Positions 871 to 60,175 of a stretch of 64,000 nt of DNA are shown piece after piece. Location: assembly GCF_009914755.1 (NCBI RefSeq), contig NC_060927.1; one strand, given 5' to 3'. The notes beneath the pieces are model-generated. The model worked only from the letters and a program-made list of their open reading frames with translations, was not told the DNA's origin and made no database searches. The stretch is from the human T2T-CHM13v2.0 reference genome, Homo sapiens. The position numbers and the translations under genes are program-made. The first letter of the stretch is position 1. Each line of letters opens with the position of its first letter.

Positions 871-1479
871 GTAAGTAATTCAATATATAATTATGCTATT
901 TAATGTATTAGAAATAATATTCAAATGCTATTAATCTTTGAGGTCCCAATCCAATTACTCTTTGAATTCTGCTTCCAGTCTGCACCCCAAATTGATGGCA
1001 CCCAAATAATCTCTTCCTCTTTAGGAGACCATAGCATGAATAAACATTTATCCATCCTATAATATCTTTCACTCTCTACATTTTATCTATGAGTGTCTCT
1101 TCTGAATTCCACTACACACTAAGTTCTTTAAAGATAAGATCTATAACTTATTTTCTGGATGAATGACAGACAAATATAGACTTTAACTGGCTTTCTAAAT
1201 AAGAGATTACCATTTTAATGAAGAAATTTATTTTAATAATAAGATCAATTGCATAAGTTTGATAGGATGTTGTATTACAAGACATTTTACTTAACTAAAT
1301 TGTGTATTTGAAACAGAGTATTTGTCTACAAAGGAATCTTCATGGTCATCTGTTCTAACTTCATTATTTTAGTTAGTAAAGTGAGGCACAGAGTCTTGCC
1401 CTAAATTAGCTGTAGATATTAGAATAGAATCTTTTTCTCCATTGCTGTGCTTTCCTTGTAAGACAGGTGCCAAGATAAT

Positions 1480-1660
1480 CTAATGATTAGAAGCAAAAAT
1501 TCTGGAATTCTAGTCCCAGCATTATCAATTACCATTTCTTGAAAAGTAGCTTAATTACTCTACATCTCAGTTTTCTTACTTTAAAATGGGAAAAATATAA
1601 TACCTAACTGATAGTGTTGTTATAGAGAGTAAGTGAAATCACAAATCAAAAATAGCATGC
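1480..1660. mobile_element. MIR SINE fragment
   Basis: MIR core-like motif ctcagttttcttactttaaaatggg...aatacct; boundaries approximate. Confidence 0.55.
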
Positions 1661-2115
1661 TACATCACACATTAAATTGTCATTATTAAGTACTTTATTA
1701 TTATTATTATATGGTCATTATCACAATATAAACATAGAGCTGAAGATATTTGGGGGGAAAATGCAATAAAGGATTTTCTTCTTATTATTAATTTATCTAA
1801 AATTTTTGTGATACTGGCATGTGTTCTACAGTAACCTAGCACTTCTACATCTATTTTAGAGAAAAGCCAGGAATGCCTGCTGAGCCTTTTGAAAGAATCA
1901 CCTCACCTACATTTCTTTTTTTGGTTCCCTAGGGCACAATATCTTATATGAGAACAAAAGTGAAATTCTTCCAAAGTTGCCCTAATATTAAAAGGTAGTT
2001 TTGCCTTAAACTTGGGAAATAAGTTTCAACTTGATTTAAACCCAAGAAATTAATATTTCATTATGTATAGCTTATCTAAAATCAAACTTTTTTAGGTGAA
2101 GGCAGAATTCTTTCT

Positions 2116-2418
<303 letters not shown>

Positions 2419-2859
2419 CAGAATTCTTTCTGTTAGAAATATTCAATTGGAAATAAACCATATTAGTGTAAGTGTAGGTGTACAACACAGGAGAGAACAT
2501 CAAGATAAGTAATAAGAATTGGGAAATTGGCTTCAGAAAGAATAGAAATATCTGTGAGTATGAGGCATGCAGAGTTGGGTAGACGGAGAAGTTCTTGAAT
2601 GGATACGAAGAAAATGATTTTATCATGCTGGCTGTGTAAGGTGCACTTGTCATGGCTTTTAAGAAGCCACAGTGGGCTTCATGGTGAAAACACGAAGCAC
2701 AAAGAAGCAGTTTAAGACAGTCCTCACATTCAAGGAGTGTACTACTCCAGTAGAGAAACAAGACACCTACATCAGAAGGAAATTGCCAATGCAAGGTTGT
2801 AAGGGTAAAAGTCTTAGGAACTCAGTATTAAGAGTCTTGAGGGCTCAGGTGCCCAAGGA

Positions 2860-3047
2860 CAGTGGTTCTCAAACTGTAGTGTAAATCAGAAGAACATGAA
2901 GGACTTGTTAGAGCACAGATTACTGCACCCTGGCCTTGAGTTTCTGATTTAGTGGGTATAGGACGGTGATTGACACTCTGCATTTGTAACAAATTCCCTG
3001 ATGGTGCTAATGCTGCTGATCTGAGGACTACGAGTGGAGAACCACTG
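2860..3047. mobile_element. MER5A-type hAT-Charlie MITE
   Basis: Terminal inverted repeats CAGTGGTTCTC...GAGAACCACTG, ~190 bp, internal tctgcatt...aacaa motif. Confidence 0.85.
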
Positions 3048-5999
3048 CTCTAGGAAGACTTCAGAGAACAGAAGAAGAGTGCTAAATGGAAAGGAGAGAC
3101 GAGTCCATTTCAAGAAAAAAAAATTGGCCAATTCATCTTGAGAAAGCTTGAGAAAAATGCACCAGTCCACTCCTTTCTTACCCTATTCAATCAGTAACGA
3201 GGTTTTAGAGAATCTAGCTCTTTAATCTTTGTTTTGATCTGATTTCTGCCTTCTGACACTGCCTACGTTTATGCCACCATTCCTCATTGCCTCTATTCCT
3301 GCGATGGATTTCAAAGTAGTATTTTTCCAATGAATTGCAAAATAGTATTTCTCTTGTCTGCCCACCATTCTCTGTTCACCCCCAAATAAACTGCCCTCCA
3401 AACTGCTGCCAGAAATATTTTTCTAAAACACAAATGTGACAAAAACTTCTCAGTGACTCCCCAGAGCTCTCAGATTAATATCCTTCCCCCTCCCCCAATT
3501 GCAGTATGCCTTGAGTTCGTTTTAGCCATGGTCCTACAGTATGTCTCAACCCTCATCACTGCCTGTATCCACTGTGGTCTGTTCTACTTTCCAGATTCCT
3601 TCTGTAGAGTAATACTTACATGCCTATGCATATGCTGTCATTTTCCCACCTTTATCATTTAGCAAACACCCATTTATGTGTCAAAACCCAGCTCCAGGGT
3701 CAGTTCCTCCAGGAAGCTTCCTAGTCTCATGTAATGATGGCTACCAGGATCCCTATGCTTGTGTCATATGCAGGTTTTATGTGGTCATACTCTTAATTAT
3801 TAAGTTTGGTGTCTTTACAAATAGAGGAAAAGTTCATTGAGGCAGGGTTTTCAACTTCCTAATTCCAGCACTTAAGGCTTGCACAATATAGATGCCAAAC
3901 AAATGAATAAATGAAGAAGGACTGTAGGATAAATAAATACATGAAAAGAAAATTTCAGCAGACAGTTTTGGTTATTTTGTAGGGGTTTATGTAGCAGAGT
4001 AAGAGAGAAGACTCTCACTTGAGCTGGGTTCAAGCCAAATTGTGGATACCAGGCTAAGGAATTTTTATTTTTAATCTTCATATGTTGGGAATGTGTAACA
4101 GATTTTGAGTATCATTGTAATATTCAAAGCGCTACTTCAGAAAACAGATTCAGAGGAAATATATATGAAAGGATCAAAAGGAAGGAGACTCAAGGTGAGG
4201 AACCAAGTGAAATTTGATGGCATTGCTTCAAGTTTAGGTTAATTAGGACATGGACTAGGGAAGTGTTAGTGAGAATAGAAGGGGAGAATCAGACCCAAAA
4301 TATATTGTAAAGTATTAATCATCAAGACATGGTGACTGAATGGATAAGAGAGGGCAAAGGAGAAAGCCAGGGCAATGGGCAAAATGATGATTTACTAGTG
4401 GGCAGAGTAAAATTCAAAGTCAGGGGCAAACGCAGAGCAAGGGATCCTTAACTTTGAGGTAAACACGTTAGTGGACATGCAGAGAGTTACTGTCAAAACG
4501 CAAATGTGTTACATTAACCCTTTGATGACTCTCTAATACAAAGCGGAGCCTATTGAAAAGGGAACACAGAGAAGGGGAGTTTTAAAATAGAGAAGGAAGT
4601 CAGAGATTGCCATCCCTGGCTGTTCTGTTGTGTCAACCTTGATCAGAGATGTGCCACAGTGACATGCCACAGGCCAAACATGAGCACTAGTCAGAGAAGG
4701 GCCAAGTAAGAAAAGCAAGAGAGGCCCGGAAACGGAAGGTCAGCAGGGCACCAAAACCAGATTTTATTTACTTTTCAACCTCACCGGAAACTGCTGGTTA
4801 GGAAACTACTTCAGGCAAATCCAGAAAAACAAATAAGAAATGTATTAAATCAATCACCGTTTAACCTCAGAATGTACTGGACAAGTATTCAGAGATGCCC
4901 AAGCATAGAGAAAAGGCAAAGAAACAATCTATAACAAACTTCTAAGTTTTTTTATCTGCACTTTATCTATAGAAAGGTAAATAAATGACCGCAAGAGATA
5001 GAACAAAGCCTCCAAAAGTATAACTTACTCATTTCACTTGTTAGCTAATAAAAAAAATAGGTTTTCATAGATAATTTTTAGTGCCACCAGTTTGGAAATA
5101 TATACACATGCCTCAATAATTATTAAGTCTTGTGGAAAACATTCTATAAAACATACCTTTGCATTATATGATTTCAAAATTTATTATTCATTGTATTATC
5201 CAGCAACATAACAAATGGATAGGTTAGTGGATCATTTCTAACTGCCAGCACCACTTCATTTTATTTCCTGTTTGCTAGATATGGTTCACTGTATCCAGCA
5301 TTTAATTTCATTAGCATTCTACTATTGAGTGCTGAAGCATACCCTTTAGCCCTATTTTCTCCATAAATTGACCAAAATGGAATGAAAGTTGCATCTTGGC
5401 TCCAATGAACAGGACAAAATTACAATACACTTACAGTCCTGTTGATTGTGTCAAGGTTCTCCCTCAGTTCATAGGATTCATCTTTTTTTAAGCAGATCTT
5501 CTCTCCTGCATGCCAAAATCCTCGCTGGTGTTGTTTAGCTCATGTCTCCTCTTTTTATTTCATATGAAGTATTATCATGCAATATGAGTACAGTGGCATC
5601 TAATAGCTTTAGCTATTTGCTAGCTGATTTTTGTCCTTCCAAACTATAAGATTCATATAATATATAATTAAATTTCCCTATCATAAAGCCATGCAGTTTG
5701 ATTGTTCCTATGGTCTTTTATACATAAAATAATTACCACCATTCCTACCTCAGTTAAAGACATTTTGCTAAGAAGAAATTGATTTTTATGTAACAGGGTT
5801 TCTTTGTAGTTGGCCCTAAGATTAGTACTTGTATAGCAAGTAGCTATTAGCTTCAATCCTTCTATAAAAAGGTATATTTAAGCAATTACCATTACTAGCT
5901 TCTTGAGAAAATTATGTATAATTTAGTCATTTACATTGTATGCACAGAGTAATTCGGTACTTGACAAAAATGGTTAACTTGTGTCTGTAACTCTTACAG

Positions 6000-6127
6000 A
6001 TCCTACAGAGCAGGTGACAATACAAGTGCTGCCACCAAAAAGTGCCATCAAAGAAGGGGATAACATCACTCTTAAATGCTTAGGGAATGGCAACCCTCCC
6101 CCAGAGGAATTTTTGTTTTACTTACCA
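6000..6127 (+). CDS. ALCAM: ALCAM exon 7 (Ig C2-1, first half)
   Basis: ttacag| ... |gtaagt; 128 nt; (Y)PTEQVTIQVLPPKSAIKEGDNITLKCLGNGNPPPEEFLFYLP. Confidence 0.97.
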
Positions 6128-7653
6128 GTAAGTGCTTAAGTATTACTTCAGTTGGATGACTATCATTTTTCCTGTTGTTTGACTTCTACATGGATAGATT
6201 AAGTGAGAAAAAATGTTATTGCTGGAGACAAGAGACGCCACCTATAAAATGTCACGTGGAAGCTTTTTCTGCACCTGCCACTGTTCTTGCCTTTTTTCTC
6301 AATGCTGAGAGATTTCAAGGACAAAGAGAAAAAAAAGCCAACCACAGGAAACCATAATTGCAAAAACTTAAAGTTTAATTATCCAAATAAACTTTAAGAA
6401 TCTGCTCCTCAGAAGCAGATAACTACAAAATGAAAACTGATGACAGTGAATGAACTGATGTGGATTCTAAATCTGCCCACAACATTGCCCCAAACACACC
6501 TCTAACCCTCAGAAGTAGGGATAGTTCTGTTGCACGTTATATTTAGGATAATGCTATGGCTCTTTTTTGGTCATTATGTATAATCATGAAATGCCATTTC
6601 CTCAACTTTTCTCCATATCATAGCTGAAGGAAATGATATGCATAGAGGATACTTTGGAAAATTCCTCTCGGATGTGCTCTGCATGTCATAAGGATCTGGA
6701 AGCAGACAAGGAGAGAGCTCGCTCTGAGGATGCCTGTTTGCTCTCGCATATCTTTGTGTTTGACATCACTTTCACATTGAGGGAAGCCATAATGCAACTC
6801 AATACTGCATTTACTGCAGGGTTGTGCTTACAAATTTCATCTACCACAGTACTCAATAGTATTTAAGAATGTCATTCACTACATTATTCAGAAGACTAGT
6901 ATAAGTAATTTCTTTATGCTGACAGAAAACTTTGTTTCTCCCAATGAATTAATTGCTGTTTTTGTTTCCTTTGCGAAGGAAAATTTAAAACTAATTAGGT
7001 TTCTGCTTTGGCTATCGGGGATGACAGAGCCAAATTTGTGTCTCAGTTTTAGCAATAATACCTGCTGAATATCTTTCTTTGTTAACTTATATTATTCCTA
7101 CATCATCTATATTTTTCCTAGTCTTAATTTAATTTCTTTTTTTCTTTTGTCATTTTCTTTTTTTCTTCTCCTCTCTCTCTTCCTTTCCCCTTTCTTTCTT
7201 TCTCATTCTTCTCATTTCATCCTTTCTTCCTTTTTACTTTCCTTCCTTCCTTCTTTCCTTCCTTTTATGTTTTTTCTTTTAATCTGGATATATAGTGTAT
7301 TTCCTTTTAAGCTGCCTCAAATATTTTTGTCAAATTACATAAGGCATAAATATAAAAATAAAACATTGGACTTTTTAAAAATGCCCTTGAAACTTGAGCA
7401 AAAGCCATGCTGTCAATAAAATAAAAGTCATCAATAGAAAATAAATCAGCTCTCAAATTCCTTAGGTCCAAAATATTAATTATTTGCCCAGGAATCAGAT
7501 ATTGGTAACACAAACTGTACTCTTTTTGTGTGATCAATGAAACACATTCCCTTTTTTATCTTACTTGATAAAATGCTATCTTCATCAAGAAATACAACTG
7601 TTCTCATTGTAGCGACCAAGTATAATCATCTGACATTTTGCCTCTATCAAAAG

Positions 7654-7786: not shown

Positions 7787-10700
7787 GTAAGTCACCTACT
7801 TCTTCATCAGCAGCTTCACCTCAAAGGCTTCTAATAGCTTAATGTAGCTATCTTTTCAAATAAACTGCACGTATATCTTTCTTAAATAACTTGGTTGCAA
7901 TAGATGCAGTAGAGAGAGAAAGCATCGGGATAAGCTCAACTTTGTCCAGATTTGTACTGCAATATTGAAACCTTTCATGGCTCTGATAACCGCAACTTTT
8001 GGCAGTGGTACATCTCCATCTTCTTTCTAAGTGTCTTCAATTTGTGGTGTCAATGAACAATATTCATATAGACCTTAAAGAAACAACTCTGTATATTTTA
8101 AGAAAACATTTCCATGTTCTTGAAGTGCACCAGCTTTGCAGTTGACCCAGCATTATCATTTGTGTTACAGAATAAATTTAACACCCAAACTCAGACAATA
8201 CAAAGTTACTACAGACTCAGTTTTGGGAACAGGAAGTAGAGATCATTAGAAGTTATTTATTGGCTGAATGTACTCTATATAGAGGGGTAGGAAATTTCTG
8301 GAAACAGAACCTCTTGAAAATCACTGTGGACATAACTTTTTAACTTTTAATTTGCTTTTGATCTCCAAATACTCCAAAAATTATATTTGCCTCGGTGTAA
8401 CAGAAAAAGACACATGTAAATACCAGACATTTAACTTGAGTTCTTCATGACAGTCCATATTATTGATGTACCTGATGAATCATGGAAACAGTAAACTAAT
8501 TCATACCACACCCTGGTGACACTAGAATTCAGAGTGCTTTAAGCAAATGTCAGTCTTGCTTAGAGGTATAGTACAAACTTCCTAATAAGTCCTTTGCACT
8601 CAACAGTACCATTAATAAGGTTTCCTCTAGACATCATCCACTACAATCCCACTGAGTATAAAGAGACTTTAGAAATTGTCTTGAGTACATAGTTCTAACT
8701 CTTTCATTTGACTCATAATACTTTAAAAACATGTGGGATATGAGCTAAATTTTTGAGAGAGATACAGGGAGGTACATTGGGGAATAAAGCAACCAGATGG
8801 TTGCTTCTGATTGTCTGATGTTGGGAGTGCTCCCTTGAGAGCCCTGTAAAAATAGTGGACTGTTATGTTCACAGCTGGGCCATTTCTCCATTTACTCCTT
8901 GCTTATGTTGCTTGGGTTTGAATGTGTCTACCATCAGGGGCTAGTTACAGAGAAAGCAGTAGCTTCCAGTATAACAATATTATCCAGTCCTGTTCCATGA
9001 AAATAAAATAATGAAGAAAGAGAATATAGCCAGCAGATAGAACCATATGTGGAATAGCTAGCTCTCTATTATCATTGCTCATGATGTCTTTGGGCCAATA
9101 ATCAATAATCTAGTGCCTTAGAGATGGTGTGATGTGCTTATTTTTAAGAGATGCAAGGTACACAGGTCTCTAAAAGAAAAGGGCTCTTATTTACTTTACT
9201 TGTAGATAAGGCAGGGGAGGATAGATGGCAGACTGACAAAGCAAAAGACTTGGTTGCAGCCATATAGTGCCTACGTGTTTGGCTGTGATGGGGGAAAATT
9301 AAACAAAAGTGTGTAAAAGTTTAATTGGATTTTAGTGCATTTAATTAGATTTAAATGCATCTTGGTTTTGACAGGTAGACTCTAACACTGGGTTTTAACT
9401 CTGTTGCTGACTCTGTTCCTCCTCAAAAGCTGAAAAAAAGTATTTCAAGTAAATCAACATCTGATTCTAAATTATATGGAAACATAAAAATCCTATTTTT
9501 ACCCACTTATCTTTGATTGCTTGCTTATTTTCCAAAAACAAGATTTGTTTCCTTTTCAAACATGTCTAAAGGAAGTGTGGGTAGAGAAGCGCCAACCCAT
9601 TCTTGCACATGTTTGCAGAATAGACTGCTCATCAAGTCTCACAGCCTACAAATTCCTAGTTGCTGATGAAAGTCACTGTTTCCCTGCCAATATATGCACA
9701 CATAGAGTCTTCATCAGAGCTTTCAAAGTCCATCATTGTCCTGTAAAATTGTTTATCTCCTCTCTGGAAAATTAGCTATCCAGCTAACAAAAACTTCTAA
9801 CTCATCCAGAATAAAATTTTCATCTAAATACAATTCACCCAAATGTTCCAAGGAAACTCCACTTTTCTACATGTTGGTACATGGTTTCATATTAATGAGA
9901 AATTGAGAAAGCATGCTCCTTCCCTTCATTCATTCAATAGTAATGTTTGAGAGTCTACCATGTCTCAGCCACTGTGGATATATCAGTGACAAACCAAGTC
10001 ACAATCACTACCCTCATGGTGCTTTCAGTCTGATAGGAGAGACAAACTTTAAAAATGATGTTGCAGTCAACAAGTTGCAATTATGACATTTTAAACCAAG
10101 GAGAAACTTGGAGTGTAATGGCAAGTCTTCATACTGTAGAACAAAGACACAACTCCTAGTGTGGCAAGCATGGTCCTCTTCAGTCTGGTCTCAATGAATT
10201 GTATGAGTTTAACTTCCATGAGTTGTCACCACTTATACCCAATTACTCACCATTACAAAATCTGCCAAGCTTTCTCATCTCTTCACCTTTGCTTATGTGA
10301 CCAAAGTTTTCCTTACATCTTCCCCTATCAAAGTCCTTCTCAACCATCAGAGGCCACGAACATATAGTGTTCCCTTTACAAAGCCTTTATTACTGCTTTG
10401 AAACCCAGTTTGGCTCTGTTCTCTATACTTCCATTAAGTCTTCATTTGTACCTCTGTTTCTAGCCTGCCTTTCATCTTTCAACAAATATTTAGTGAACTC
10501 CAAATCAGTGTCAGGTTTGCTACTAGGTGCTGATTTTATGGGCTGTGTGTTATAGTCAGCATAGTACCTCTACCTCATTGACTTATAAGGTCATTATTTA
10601 TCTCTGCATCTCTCATCAGTGCTTGGGACTTAGTAGCTGTACAATAAATACTTGTTCAGTTGAGTTGGAATTTTCTCATACAGATCAGACTATGACAGTA

Positions 10701-50703: not shown

Positions 50704-52587
50704 ACAGTTACCTCCTACACAGCAGGCACTCAATGTATATGAGTACATCTTACTTATCCTTGTCTACAGCAGTTAAATAATGTGGACACAGGTGGCTCAG
50801 TACAGCTAAGATTGACAGTGTGACATTTAGGTGACATCACCTCTTTCAATTTTCAATTCAGTTTAGTTACTTGCTTTCTTTGTATCCTAGTCTATTTTGA
50901 CTATATAACCTGGCATGCTATGTTGGGAGAAAAAAATTAAATAATTTAATGAAAGAGCTTTAAAGATCCTCACCGATCAGAGATTTAGAGGGCATCATCA
51001 AACAAGAATCTTCGTACCTCCCACTATTTTCCCTTCTCCTTCCTTATGCTTCAAGTTGAGAGAATCAAAGCTGCAGATGCAAAGCAAGCACTGGGAGGGA
51101 ATGGAGAAAAAGAGCAGTCAGATCTCACTTCTGTCTCCAAGCCTTAGTTATAAGAAATAAAAAAAAGAAAAGCCACACCTTACAATGAAGATTGGATTGT
51201 TGATTAATAGCTCAGACACCCTTATTGAGTTGAGTCCATGTTTTGTGATTTTAAGTGACTATAAAACTGTTTATTATCTATGAGTGGGCTAGAAACTTAT
51301 GAATTCTGCCCCAGTTCCCATCCAGGGGCAGGGAACTTAAAAATAAGGCCCTTTTTGCTTAGGGATCTGCTTCTTTAGATTGAAAGTCATTGAGTGAACA
51401 ATACAGCAACAAATTTAACAATTGCTAATTTTTGCCACATTATTACTTTTATGCCTACGCTTAACAAAGGAAAAATCACCTGCTATATGGAGCCATAAGT
51501 AACATCCGTTAGAATGCCAAAAGAAATTAGGCAATTGTGGAGAAGAACTGTTAGTGGTAATTTCTTTCTTACCTTTCCTCCTGTTTTTCTTCTCTTATGC
51601 AAGTCTTACACACAAACCAAGTAGTGGATGGCACAAATTATCCAATCGCCATTACAACTAATGAGATGAGCTTTCTATCAGCTTTCTATTGTATTCAATT
51701 ACTATTTTGTAAACAAATCCATCTTCCATTGTGTCCTGGTACAAAACTTAGTAAACGGCCTTATAGAGTCCTTTTAATTATTGCCAGTGATAGTGGATTT
51801 AAAGGATTTGAGGTCATCTATCTAAATTAATGCATGGGCTGATTACAAAGTACGTCGCAATGCAATTTGTTTCTTAAAGGATCTTTTCTGAAATTAAAAT
51901 AACACATGATTAGACTATCATTTCCTTGAAATTCCTCTGCATCCCAGCCAGCTTATAATTAATATGCAAGGATAATCATTCCAAATGCAACTTTTAATAC
52001 CACTGACATGTTCCTCCCTTAGAAGCTAGCAATTTCTAATCCCTTTATTATTAATTTGATTAATGCAAACTACTATATGTGGCTGTGAAGGAACAGAGGC
52101 AAATCAAAGTTAGCACACTAACTCATTTAAATTTAAATTGCTGAGAAATGATATGCTCTTTAGCCTGTGATCTCAAGCAAAAGAAAAAAATATCTCTCGT
52201 ACCAAATAATAGATTTTTTTCATATATGAAGAATCCAAAGCAATACTTCAAGTTCAAAATGACTCTGAATTCTGGAATGACATATTCATATTCTCTGTGG
52301 ATTTAAGGAGGAAAAAGAAAATTCAGAACACACCTGAATGACAGTAAAGTAACTCCAAAAGCAACTTGGTTAAACAAGAACTCATGTGCTGAATGAGAGG
52401 GTCATCCAGGCTACAAACAACACCTTAGAGAAATATAACCAAGATAATTTTATAAACCTCATCTAAATTTCATTTTCCATGCTAGTGTCCTTTTTGCATT
52501 TCACTGATCATCATTTTAGGCAGTTTTTCTTGTTCACCTTGAAGAATACATGATATTCTATAGACGGTAGCTTCATCTGCGTTTAGG

Positions 52588-52590
<3 letters not shown>

Positions 52591-52637
<47 letters not shown>
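52591..52637. repeat. (TG)n microsatellite at an Alu tail
   Basis: About 23 TG units, then (GTT)n and poly-T. Confidence 0.95.
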
Positions 52638-52638
<1 letters not shown>

Positions 52639-52650
52639 GTTGTTGTTGTT

Positions 52651-52972
52651 GTTTTTCTTTTTTTTTTTTTTGAGATGGAGTCTCATTTTGTCACCCGGGC
52701 TGGAGTGCAGTCGCACCATCTCGGCTCACAGCATCCTCTGCCTCCTGGGTTCAAGAGATTCTTCTGCCTCAGCCTCCCAAGTAGCTGGGATTACAGGCAT
52801 GCACCAGGACACCCGCACCGGGCTAATTTTTTTGTTTGTTTCTTTGTATTTTTAATAGAAACAGGGTTTCACATGTTGGCCAGGCTGGTCTCGAACTCCT
52901 GACCTCAGGTAATCCACCTGCCTCAGCCTCCCAAAGTGCTGGGATTACGGGCGTGAGCCACCGTGCTCAGCC
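52651..52972 (-). mobile_element. Alu (AluS-type), antisense
   Basis: gagatggagtctc...caaagtgctgggattac...cagcc. Confidence 0.92.
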
Positions 52973-53584
52973 TGTATTTAGATTTTAAAGTATAATGCAC
53001 ACCTATAAACACACACACAATCTATTCATGTAAATAAGGAATGTGAAGCTCAGAAAAGTACTTTCTGAAGAGTCTGTATTCCACAGTATGAAAAAATATT
53101 TTTTATTTCAACGTTGTTGACTTACTTGCAATAGCCCATTCACCTAAAATGCCTTTGTTTTTCCCTGTAATTATCCAAATACTTCTCTTTTTTTTTTTTT
53201 TCCCCAAAAAGTAGTTTATTCAGGAATAGCAAGGGATTGCAATCTGGGACATATGCATGCTATGGTGAACCATAGACACATCCAAAGGGGTTGGGGAAAG
53301 GGGGAAGCTTTTAAAGATAAAAAGGAGAAATTCATGTAAGCCATTTTCTTTTTTTTTTTTTCTTTTTTTTTTTTTTTTATTATACTCTAAGTTTTAGGGT
53401 ACATGTGCACATTGTGCAGGTTAGTTACATATGTATACATGTGCCATGCTGGTGCGCTGCACCCACTAATGTGTCATCTAGCATTAGGTATATCTCCCAA
53501 TGCTATCCCTCCCCTCTCCCCCCGACCCCACCACAGTCCCCAGAGTGTGATGTTCCCCTTCCTGTGTCCATGTGATCTCATTGT

Positions 53585-56373
<2,789 letters not shown>

Positions 56374-56412
56374 AGACCATCGAGACTAGGAAGAAACTGC
56401 ATCAACTAATGA

Positions 56413-58227
<1,815 letters not shown>

Positions 58228-58314
58228 GACTAAAATTCAGCTGAATAAAGTTGTGATCGTTATTTTATTTTCTAATGACCTCCATGCACCTATACTTAGA
58301 AATATCTGGTTCAT

Positions 58315-58715
<401 letters not shown>

Positions 58716-59395: not shown

Positions 59396-60175
59396 TGAAA
59401 CGGGAGAGTTCCCTGATTCTCCTAGCAGGACGTGCGACAGGGGTGTGGCTCGCCTGTTCAGTCGCCCAGCAGCTCAAACCCCTAGGGAGAGCATGCAGAC
59501 TGGCAGGTGCAGAGGCCTGGCCAGGATTTCGGCTCCAGCTCCGTGGTAGTGTCTAGGGGTGGGTGCCTGCAACCCCAGTGTTACAAAGCTCTTTCAGCTT
59601 TGCTGTCCACAGGTGGCTTGAGCGTTAACCAGCTCAATGGTCCCTCTGCCTTTTCGCAAGAGCAGAGGGCCAGTGTGACAGTTTTCTGTATCCTGTGCTC
59701 TTGTCCAGTGTCCCAGAAAAATCGGGTCACACACAGACTCGAAGGATGAATGTGAGGTTTTATTGAATGGTGGAGGTGGCTTTCAGCAGGATGGACGGGG
59801 AGCCAGAATGGGTGGATGGAGTGGGAAGGTGACCCTCTCCTGGAGTTGGGCTGCCCAGCGGCCGGATTCCTCTCTGACCACCCCTAGCTGAAATCCTCTC
59901 AGTGTTCAGATGTTCCTCCTCTTCTCCCTTTCTCTGCCTCATTGTTCTGCTGTCCATCTGCTGGTCGGCTGGCTTGCTGGTCTGCTTCTGGAGCTTAGCG
60001 TTTGGGGTTTATATGGATGCAGGAAAGGGGGCATGGTGGACCAAAAGGCAACTTTTTGGCATGAAAACAAGAATGCCAGTCCTCATTTAGGGCCACAGGT
60101 CTTCAGGCTTGAGGGTGGAGCCTTTGCCGGGAACTGCCCTCTTCTCCCCAGAATTTCCATCTCCTGTCTGTATCA
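59396..60175 (-). mobile_element. ERV1 solo LTR (LTR1-like), antisense
   Basis: TG...CA termini, TSD ATAC at 59392-59395 and 60176-60179; minus strand starts tgatacagacaggag...gaagagggcagttcccggcaaagg. Confidence 0.8.

What the first reader, a model, noticed from the sequence alone, without database searches (positions are those of the whole stretch)
53188..53381. L1HS 3' transduction: 147 bp of non-L1 DNA between two poly(A) tails, inside the TSD
Seen: the left TSD copy (AAATACTTCTCTTT, 53177-53190) does not abut the L1 tail. It abuts a separate T14 tract (53188-53201), then 147 bp of non-L1 sequence (53202-53348), then the L1's own T13CT16 tail (53349-53378). On the L1 strand the extra segment has AATAAA (53215-53220) 13 nt before the second poly(A). 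Established: this is the signature of transcription reading past the weak L1 polyA signal and carrying downstream flank of the source element. Inference: the segment is a tag that identifies the parent L1 and any sibling insertions.
Basis: partly seen in the sequence, partly recalled or inferred. Interest (0 to 1): 0.85.

Follow-up and report, generated by a model that had tools for sequence, protein, structure and literature searches.

The report
L1 insertion carrying chromosome 2 flank
This is an ordinary young human L1 retrotransposon copy that carried about 145 bases of DNA from beside its parent element on chromosome 2, so its parent locus can be named.

Summary

- **Source found.** The 147-bp segment matches one other place in the assembly at 99% (145 of 147 bases): chr2:178,461,794-178,461,938. 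The other 38 hits are 71-86% identical.
- **Position of the match.** It starts at the 3' target-site duplication of a full-length L1HS-Ta and follows that element's A-rich tail directly.
- **Mechanism.** A transcript of the chr2 L1 read past its own signal. It was cut about 11-14 nt after an AATAAA that belongs to an ancient LTR-like repeat, then inserted at chr3.
- **Correction 1.** The inner T13CT16 tract is a copy of the source's genomic tail, not a tail the new copy received itself.
- **Correction 2.** The L1 is 5'-truncated and 5'-inverted (twin priming), with a 33-36 bp overlap between the two arms.
- **Correction 3.** No sibling carrying the tag was found in this assembly.
- **Correction 4.** The chr2 element here has both reading frames broken by mutations of its own.

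Private divergence of about 0.27% on each copy suggests an insertion roughly 1-3 million years old. This is a textbook phenomenon of low interest. Empty alleles and ape orthologues could not be checked.

The parts
53177..53190 (+). Left copy of the 14-bp target-site duplication (AAATACTTCTCTTT). Its last 3 T cannot be told apart from the start of the tail.
   Evidence: 2 exact matches in the window, 0.13 expected.
53188..53201 (-). Terminal poly(A) of the inserted RNA: 11-14 A on the L1 strand. This is the only tail added after transcription.
   Evidence: The chr2 source has no A run at this place (alignment).
53202..53203 (-). Two G (on the L1 strand) between the transduced DNA and the tail, with no template at the chr2 source.
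   Evidence: The one search match covers query 1-145 of 147..
53204..53348 (-). Transduced chr2 flank, 145 bp: the source's 3' target-site duplication (53339-53350) followed by 135 bp of an ancient LTR-like repeat. It includes the AATAAA at 53215-53220.
   Evidence: 99% to G000 C2:178461794-178461938, E 1e-66; one substitution; the hexamer is kept in 8 of 10 aligned copies.
53349..53378 (-). Copy of the source element's genomic A-rich tail. It reads A16-G-A13 here and A17-G-A3 at chr2.
   Evidence: The interrupting G is shared, and it is followed in both copies by the same G-AAAA-TGGCT.
53379..55669 (-). L1HS-Ta 3' arm, not inverted. It corresponds to about bases 3732-6007 of the chr2 element and carries the ACA trinucleotide at 53470-53472.
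   Evidence: matches L011 6498-8939, minus strand. (99% to many young L1 copies). ACA read and its meaning taken from PMC7026601.
55670..58211 (+). L1HS-Ta 5' arm, inverted. It corresponds to about bases 1221-3767 of the chr2 element. Its last 33 bases (58179-58211) repeat 55637-55669 in reverse complement.
   Evidence: 99.53% to L011 3987-6533, plus strand. last row (33-bp inverted self-match).
58212..58225 (+). Right copy of the 14-bp target-site duplication. Its first 3 A are shared with the L1 sequence, giving microhomology at the internal priming site.

Best explanation
This is a 'partnered' L1 3' transduction combined with a twin-priming inversion.

1. A full-length L1HS-Ta sits at chr2:178,455,766-178,461,772 of this assembly. 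It was transcribed past its own weak polyadenylation signal.
2. The transcript ran through the element's genomic A-rich tail, its 3' target-site duplication and 135 bp of flank.
3. It was cleaved about 11-14 nt after an AATAAA that belongs to an ancient LTR-like repeat, and was then polyadenylated.
4. L1 endonuclease nicked the window's + strand at 5'-CTTT/AA-3'. The T-rich end primed reverse transcription on the new poly(A) tail. This produced the tail, the transduced flank, the copied source tail and the 3' half of L1 (53188-55669).
5. The second-strand nick lay 14 bp away. Its 3' end annealed through AAA inside ORF2 and primed a second cDNA, which became the inverted arm (55670-58211).
6. 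The two cDNAs were joined with a 33-36 bp overlap.

The product had no 5' UTR and a split ORF2, so it was dead on arrival.

Shown: the sequence relationships, the boundaries and the direction chr2 to chr3. Inferred: the RNA steps, the order of nicks and the age of roughly 1-3 million years.
For: - **Unique source.** The 147-bp query gave 40 scored matches: itself, chr2 at 99% over bases 1-145, and 38 others at 71-86%.
- **Arrangement at chr2.** The match begins right after an L1 3' end plus A17-G-A3. The L1 there is full length, with a body of 6,007 bp, flanked by AAGAAAATGGCT on both sides.
- **Same tail architecture.** Both copies have an A run, one G, an A run, then G-AAAA-TGGCT.
- **Direction.** The chr2 flank continues in homology with the old repeat family for about 45 bp past the cleavage point, to the family's end (...GGTTGACA). 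The window copy stops there and has A14 followed by the target-site duplication.
- **One duplication encloses everything**.
- **Signal position.** AATAAA lies 13 nt before the tail. This is inside the 10-30 bp range quoted in PMC13009371 (passages).
- **Inversion.** The two arms match the chr2 element in opposite orientation, over L011 6498-8939 and 3987-6533. There is a 33-bp exact inverted duplicate.
- **L1 bodies are compatible.** There are 28 substitutions over 4,833 bp. Against 11 other young copies per arm, 13 are private to the window, 13 are private to chr2 and 2 are ambiguous. The two copies share uncommon states at L011 6305 and 8600.
Against: - **The L1 body does not single out chr2.** For the 3' arm, chr2 is not among the 40 best-scoring copies. 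For the 5' arm it ranks with about 20 others.
- **The shared uncommon states are not exclusive.** The 8600/8629 haplotype is also found at 3 or more other loci. At least two of these are older subfamilies (ACG and GAG types), so it is probably an ancestral state. The 6305 state is found at 5 or more other loci.
- **The chr2 element cannot be active as it stands in this assembly.** ORF1 is open for 146 aa and ORF2 for 872 aa. All the disabling changes are private to chr2, so they probably came later.
- **Small mismatches.** Two terminal G have no template, and the inner A3 tract is A13 in the window.
- **Not examined.** No empty allele or ape orthologue was examined.
Confidence: 0.9

Rival explanations
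1. Indirect descent. The immediate parent was not the chr2 element but an earlier offspring of it that already carried the same tag and poly(A). That offspring is absent from this assembly or lost. Re-transcribing it and re-using the transduced AATAAA would give the same structure.
For: Three observations could reflect an extra generation:
- The window copy has A13 where chr2 has A3, plus two untemplated G at the tag's end.
- 6 of the 13 window-private substitutions are transversions.
- The body does not rank chr2 as its nearest relative.
Against: No third copy of the tag exists among the 40 scored hits; the next best is 86%. A 5'-truncated offspring could not serve as a source, so the intermediate would have to be a full-length copy that has since vanished. 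The A-tract length and a few substitutions are explained just as well by ordinary decay.
Confidence: 0.07
2. A DNA-level event rather than retrotransposition of a read-through RNA. This could be gene conversion, ectopic recombination or segmental copying between the chr2 and chr3 L1 elements that dragged chr2 flank along.
For: Two young L1 copies share more than 99% identity and could recombine.
Against: The copied flank ends 11-14 nt after an AATAAA and is followed by a pure A run. That A run abuts a 14-bp target-site duplication at a CTTT/AA site. A DNA-level copy would not create these features. It would also be expected to carry chr2 sequence beyond the cleavage site, which is absent.
Confidence: 0.02
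3. Two independent insertions. A poly(A)-bearing retrocopy of the old repeat landed first, and an L1 later landed exactly at its 5' end.
For: The segment belongs to a repeat family with many copies.
Against: Only one target-site duplication encloses both parts. The same L1-tail-flank junction exists base for base at chr2. The family copies elsewhere are 71-86% identical, not 99%.
Confidence: 0.01

Closest known systems
L1 3' transduction, 'partnered' type. Goodier 2000, Pickeral 2000 and Szak 2003 were seen only as entries in a reference list. The CHM13 catalogue in the Hoyt et al. preprint 10.1101/2021.07.12.451456 was read as passages. PMC13009371 was read as passages.
   Same: All the hallmarks are present:
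- the L1 3' end and its A tract;
- non-L1 DNA identical to the flank of a full-length source;
- a canonical signal 10-30 nt before a second poly(A);
- one target-site duplication around everything.

The length of about 145 bp is typical of short transductions.
   Different: Nothing in kind. Three particulars stand out:
- the signal used is the conserved AATAAA of an ancient LTR-like repeat;
- the source in this assembly now has both reading frames broken;
- two G at the tail boundary are untemplated.

Whether this event is among the 183 highest-confidence L1 3' events of the CHM13 catalogue could not be checked, because the preprint's supplements are closed.
Twin-priming 5' inversion of L1. 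Ostertag and Kazazian 2001 was seen only as a reference-list entry. Rates and overlaps come from PMC12016303, read as passages.
   Same: The 5' part is inverted inside the same target-site duplication. There is 3-nt microhomology at the internal priming site, and the two cDNAs overlap. Inversions occur in 18.4% of germline L1 polymorphisms (165 of 897).
   Different: The overlap here is 33-36 bp. That is above the reported upper quartile (median 12 bp, quartiles 4-17 bp).
L1HS-Ta subfamily
   Same: The ACA trinucleotide is present in the 3' UTR at 53470-53472. It is L1Hs-Ta-defining according to PMC7026601 (passages). The copy is 99.2-99.6% identical to other young copies.
   Different: The copy is truncated and inverted, with one frameshift. 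It is not a potential source element.

Membership tests
L1 3' transduction | L1 3' end with its own signal and A tract, followed by DNA that is not L1 | tested here: met
   The segment hits about 40 loci in the assembly rather than thousands.
L1 3' transduction | A second poly(A) at the far end, preceded by a polyadenylation hexamer 10-30 nt upstream | tested here: met
   AATAAA at 53215-53220, 13 nt before A14. The 10-30 nt range is taken from PMC13009371.
L1 3' transduction | A single target-site duplication enclosing the L1 plus the extra segment | tested here: met
   14-bp exact repeat at 53177-53190 and 58212-58225. Chance expectation 0.13 matches.
L1 3' transduction | The extra segment is near-identical to DNA immediately 3' of another L1 (the source), starting at that element's tail | tested here: met
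   99% over 145 bp at C2:178461794-178461938, directly after a full-length L1HS-Ta and its A17-G-A3 tract.
L1 3' transduction | L1 endonuclease-type nick site (TTTT/AA-like) | tested here: met
   The reconstructed site is 5'-CTTT/AA-3' on the + strand, one mismatch from TTTT/AA. It is not one of the three strict motifs counted in PMC12016303 (TTTT/A, TTTT/G, TTTC/A).
L1 3' transduction | An empty allele or orthologous site lacking the whole unit | not testable with these tools
   Only this one human assembly is searchable. No ape or other human genomes are held.
Twin-priming inversion | Two L1 segments in opposite orientation within one target-site duplication, with the inverted one covering more 5' L1 sequence | tested here: met
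   window 53204-55669 matches L011 8939-6498 (minus), and window 55668-58214 matches L011 3987-6533 (plus).
Twin-priming inversion | A small duplication or deletion at the inversion point, and microhomology at the junctions | tested here: met
   33-bp exact inverted duplicate, or 36 bp by BLAST ends. AAA is shared between L1 and the duplication at 58212-58214. There is a 2-3 nt overlap at 55668-55670.
L1HS-Ta | ACA trinucleotide in the 3' UTR (ACG = pre-Ta, GAG = L1PA2 or older) | tested here: met
   ACA in the window and in the chr2 element. The rule comes from PMC7026601. For contrast, L036 has ACG and L037 has GAG.

The most novel reading that the evidence does not exclude
The two G between the transduced flank and the A14 tail (53202-53203) have no template at chr2 or in the old repeat family, which reads GGAAAG there. 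They could be non-A residues that were present at the start of the RNA's tail and were fixed into DNA by reverse transcription. That would make them a genomic fossil of non-canonical tailing of an L1 read-through transcript. The alternatives are two adjacent later A-to-G changes or a lost source allele.
Probability: 0.12. Interest if true: 0.3.

Novelty: already known. Interest (0 to 1): 0.15.

Why it matters
The finding names a parent-offspring pair of human L1 elements (chr2:178.46 Mb to chr3:108.31 Mb in T2T-CHM13) with near certainty. The L1 bodies alone could not do this: the chr2 copy is not even among the 40 closest matches for the 3' arm.

It is a clean worked example of three textbook features in one insertion: read-through to a downstream signal, here donated by an ancient LTR-like repeat; copying of the source's own tail and target-site duplication; and twin priming.

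It also shows a source element that has decayed since it fired. Nothing here challenges current understanding. The insertion lies in intergenic DNA about 10 kb beyond the ALCAM 3' end, and no functional consequence is indicated.

Tried and rejected
- **Sibling insertions.** The whole-assembly search with the tag found none. Of 40 scored hits, only the window itself and chr2 exceed 86%. I also read the 3' ends of six L1 copies that share uncommon body variants with the pair (L013, L015, L021, L036, L037, L038). 0 of 6 carry the chr2 flank.
- **Using L1 body variants as independent proof of parentage.** Rejected. The shared states recur at 3 or more and 5 or more other loci, and the searches score only 40 of 471 and 40 of 247 candidates, so these counts are lower bounds. 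The window's own locus was not among the 40 scored.
- **Finding the upstream part of the old repeat in the chr2 5' flank.** BLAST gave no hit. Local alignments to 6 of the 8 fetched family copies scored within or barely above the shuffled range: 2 of 6 slightly exceeded the shuffle maximum, at non-collinear positions.
- **Naming the old repeat family.** Not possible, because no Dfam or RepeatMasker library is held.
- **Literature on this specific locus.** Searches and passages from five papers gave nothing on this chr2-chr3 pair. Szak 2003, Pickeral 2000, Ostertag 2001 and the journal version of the T2T repeat paper are not held.
- **Earlier findings of this scan.** Not open.

Full report
**1. 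Observation**

- The 14-mer AAATACTTCTCTTT occurs exactly twice in the 64-kb window, at 53177-53190 and 58212-58225. At up to one mismatch, 0.13 matches are expected by chance, and 0 of 100 shuffles gave two.
- Moving right from the left copy there is a T14 run (53188-53201, sharing three T with the duplication), then 147 bp (53202-53348), then T13-C-T16 (53349-53378).
- From 53379 onward lies the reverse complement of an L1 3' end.
- On the L1 strand, AATAAA sits at 53215-53220, 13 nt before the outer A run.

**2. The source**

A search of the window's own assembly with the 147 bp returned 40 scored matches:

- the window itself;
- chr2:178,461,794-178,461,938 at 99% over bases 1-145 (E about 1e-66);
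- 38 others at 71-86%.

Reading the chr2 locus shows an L1 3' end carrying the Ta-type ACA. It is followed by A17-G-A3 and then, without a break, by the same sequence as the window's segment. Beyond the point where the window switches to poly(A), chr2 continues with unrelated-looking genomic DNA.

Fetching 9.5 kb of this locus (L011) shows that the chr2 L1 is full length.

- It starts with the usual 5' end at L011 2767, and its body ends at 8773, giving 6,007 bp.
- It is flanked by AAGAAAATGGCT at 2755-2766 and 8793-8804.

**3. What exactly was carried**

The window reads A16-G-A13-G-AAAA-TGGCT on the L1 strand. Chr2 reads A17-G-A3-G-AAAA-TGGCT. This has two consequences:

- The inner 'tail' of the window copy is the source's genomic tail, transcribed as part of a read-through RNA.
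- The first bases of the '147 bp' are the source's 3' target-site duplication.

After that come 135 bp of chr2 flank with one substitution. The final two G (53202-53203) have no template at chr2. Only the outer A11-14 is a true post-transcriptional tail.

**4. The signal that ended the transcript**

The 38 weaker hits show that the flank is a fragment of an old interspersed repeat.

- I aligned eight of them with the chr2 flank and the window copy.
- The family runs about 45 bp beyond the cleavage point and ends in ...GGTTGACA, an LTR-like terminus.
- The AATAAA is kept in 8 of the 10 aligned sequences.
- Other copies extend 110-280 bp further upstream.

The L1 read-through transcript was therefore terminated by the still-functional polyadenylation hexamer of an ancient LTR-like element. 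A T/G-rich stretch lies downstream in the chr2 DNA. I could not name the family because no repeat library is held.

Alignment A1 also fixes the direction of transfer. Chr2 has the complete 3' end of the repeat, whereas the window copy is cut at the cleavage site and carries A14.

**5. The L1 is inverted as well as truncated**

BLAST of the window insertion against the chr2 element gives two blocks:

| Window | L011 (chr2 element) | Strand | Identity |
|---|---|---|---|
| 53204-55669 | 8939-6498 | minus | 98.2%; the gaps are mostly in the A tract plus a 14-bp indel |
| 55668-58214 | 3987-6533 | plus | 99.53% |

- The insertion therefore comprises about L1 bases 1221-6007, with the 5' part flipped.
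- The two arms share L011 6498-6533. independently shows a 33-bp exact inverted duplicate (55637-55669 against 58179-58211).
- At the right end, the L1 sequence and the target-site duplication share AAA. This is the microhomology expected where the second-strand 3' end primed inside the RNA.
- The reconstructed first-strand nick is 5'-CTTT/AA-3'.

All of this fits twin priming. That mechanism is seen in 18.4% of germline L1 polymorphisms (165 of 897), with a typical overlap of 12 bp and quartiles of 4-17 bp (PMC12016303, passages). The overlap here is longer than usual.

**6. Do the L1 bodies agree?**

They are compatible, but they are not diagnostic.

For each arm I compared the two copies with 11 other young L1 copies. 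These were the first 11 loci returned out of 40 scored hits, from 4,461 and 5,177 candidates respectively.

| Class of difference (4,833 bp compared) | Substitutions | Indels |
|---|---|---|
| Private to the window | 13 | one 1-bp deletion |
| Private to chr2 | 13 | a 2-bp and a 14-bp deletion |
| Ambiguous | 2 | none |

- Chr2 is absent from the 40 best matches to the 3' arm. For the 5' arm it ties with about 20 others.
- Two states shared by the pair were found in 0 of the 11 comparators (L011 8600 and 6305), but they are not exclusive.
- The 65-mer around the first is identical at 4 of 40 scored loci. Two of these are pre-Ta or older elements (ACG, GAG), so the state is probably ancestral.
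- The 65-mer around the second is identical at 7 of 40 scored loci, including the window and chr2.
- None of the six relatives I read carries the chr2 flank.

The transduced tag is therefore what identifies the parent. That is the purpose for which such tags are used.

**7. State of the two copies and age**

- In this assembly the chr2 element has ORF1 open for 146 aa and ORF2 for 872 aa. From memory, the intact lengths are 338 and 1,275 aa.
- All the disabling changes are among the chr2-private differences, so they most simply arose after the element fired.
- The window copy lacks the 5' UTR and most of ORF1. Its ORF2 is split by the inversion and has one frameshift.
- Excluding CpG transitions, 12 substitutions are private to the window and 8 to chr2, or 0.25% and 0.17%.
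- With a recalled neutral rate near 1e-9 per site per year, this puts the event very roughly 1-3 million years ago.
- That age would make the insertion fixed or common rather than a recent polymorphism. This is inference. Some of the differences could be reverse-transcription errors: 6 of the 13 window-private changes are transversions.

**8. Comparison with what is known**

This is the classical L1 3' transduction, of the 'partnered' type.

- About a quarter of L1 insertions carry one, and canonical hexamers lie 10-30 bp upstream of most transduction ends (PMC13009371, passages).
- The T2T-CHM13 repeat study catalogued 183 highest-confidence L1 3' transductions in this same assembly (preprint passages).

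All the defining features that could be tested were met. The empty-site test is the one that could not be run.

**9. Verdict**

The phenomenon is well known and the instance is ordinary.

Loose ends:
- the two untemplated G at the tail boundary;
- the A3/A13 difference in the copied tail;
- the fact that at chr2 the old repeat fragment begins within a few bases of the L1 target site.

Noticed in passing
L011 2400-2766 versus L011 8795-8985 (chr2 source locus): The ancient LTR-like repeat fragment at chr2 starts within a few bases of the L1 target site. The DNA upstream of the L1 shows no similarity to the part of the family that lies upstream in eight other copies. This could be coincidence or an older truncation.
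   Followed up: partly
L013 (G000 C12, about 3.505 Mb), 3' end: This L1 is the best match to the window's 3' arm (99.39%) and shares two uncommon body states with the pair. Its tail reads A14-G-AAA-GG-A10..., which resembles the A17-G-AAA-G of the chr2 source. It may be a close relative of the source lineage. This was not tested.
   Followed up: no
L038 (G000 C5:111649506-111650106), 3' end: This L1 3' end is followed by A12, then 15 bases that are not A, including AATAAA-like repeats, then A13. It could be a very short transduction or a heterogeneous tail.
   Followed up: no
window 52585-52975: A long (GT)n microsatellite, then (GTT)n, then T-rich sequence runs straight into an Alu in reverse orientation. 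It lies about 200 bp left of the L1 target site.
   Followed up: no
window 58309-58634: An Alu with an interrupted A-rich tail lies about 85 bp right of the L1 insertion. It sits outside the L1's target-site duplication and is therefore a separate event.
   Followed up: no
window 59400-59800: A G+C-richer stretch that is unlike the A+T-rich surroundings. It was seen only while reading the flank and was not analysed.
   Followed up: no
window 53306-53348: NCBI's repeat mask starts at 53306, inside the transduced segment rather than at the L1 end (53379). This fits the segment being part of an old repeat plus A-rich tracts.
   Followed up: partly
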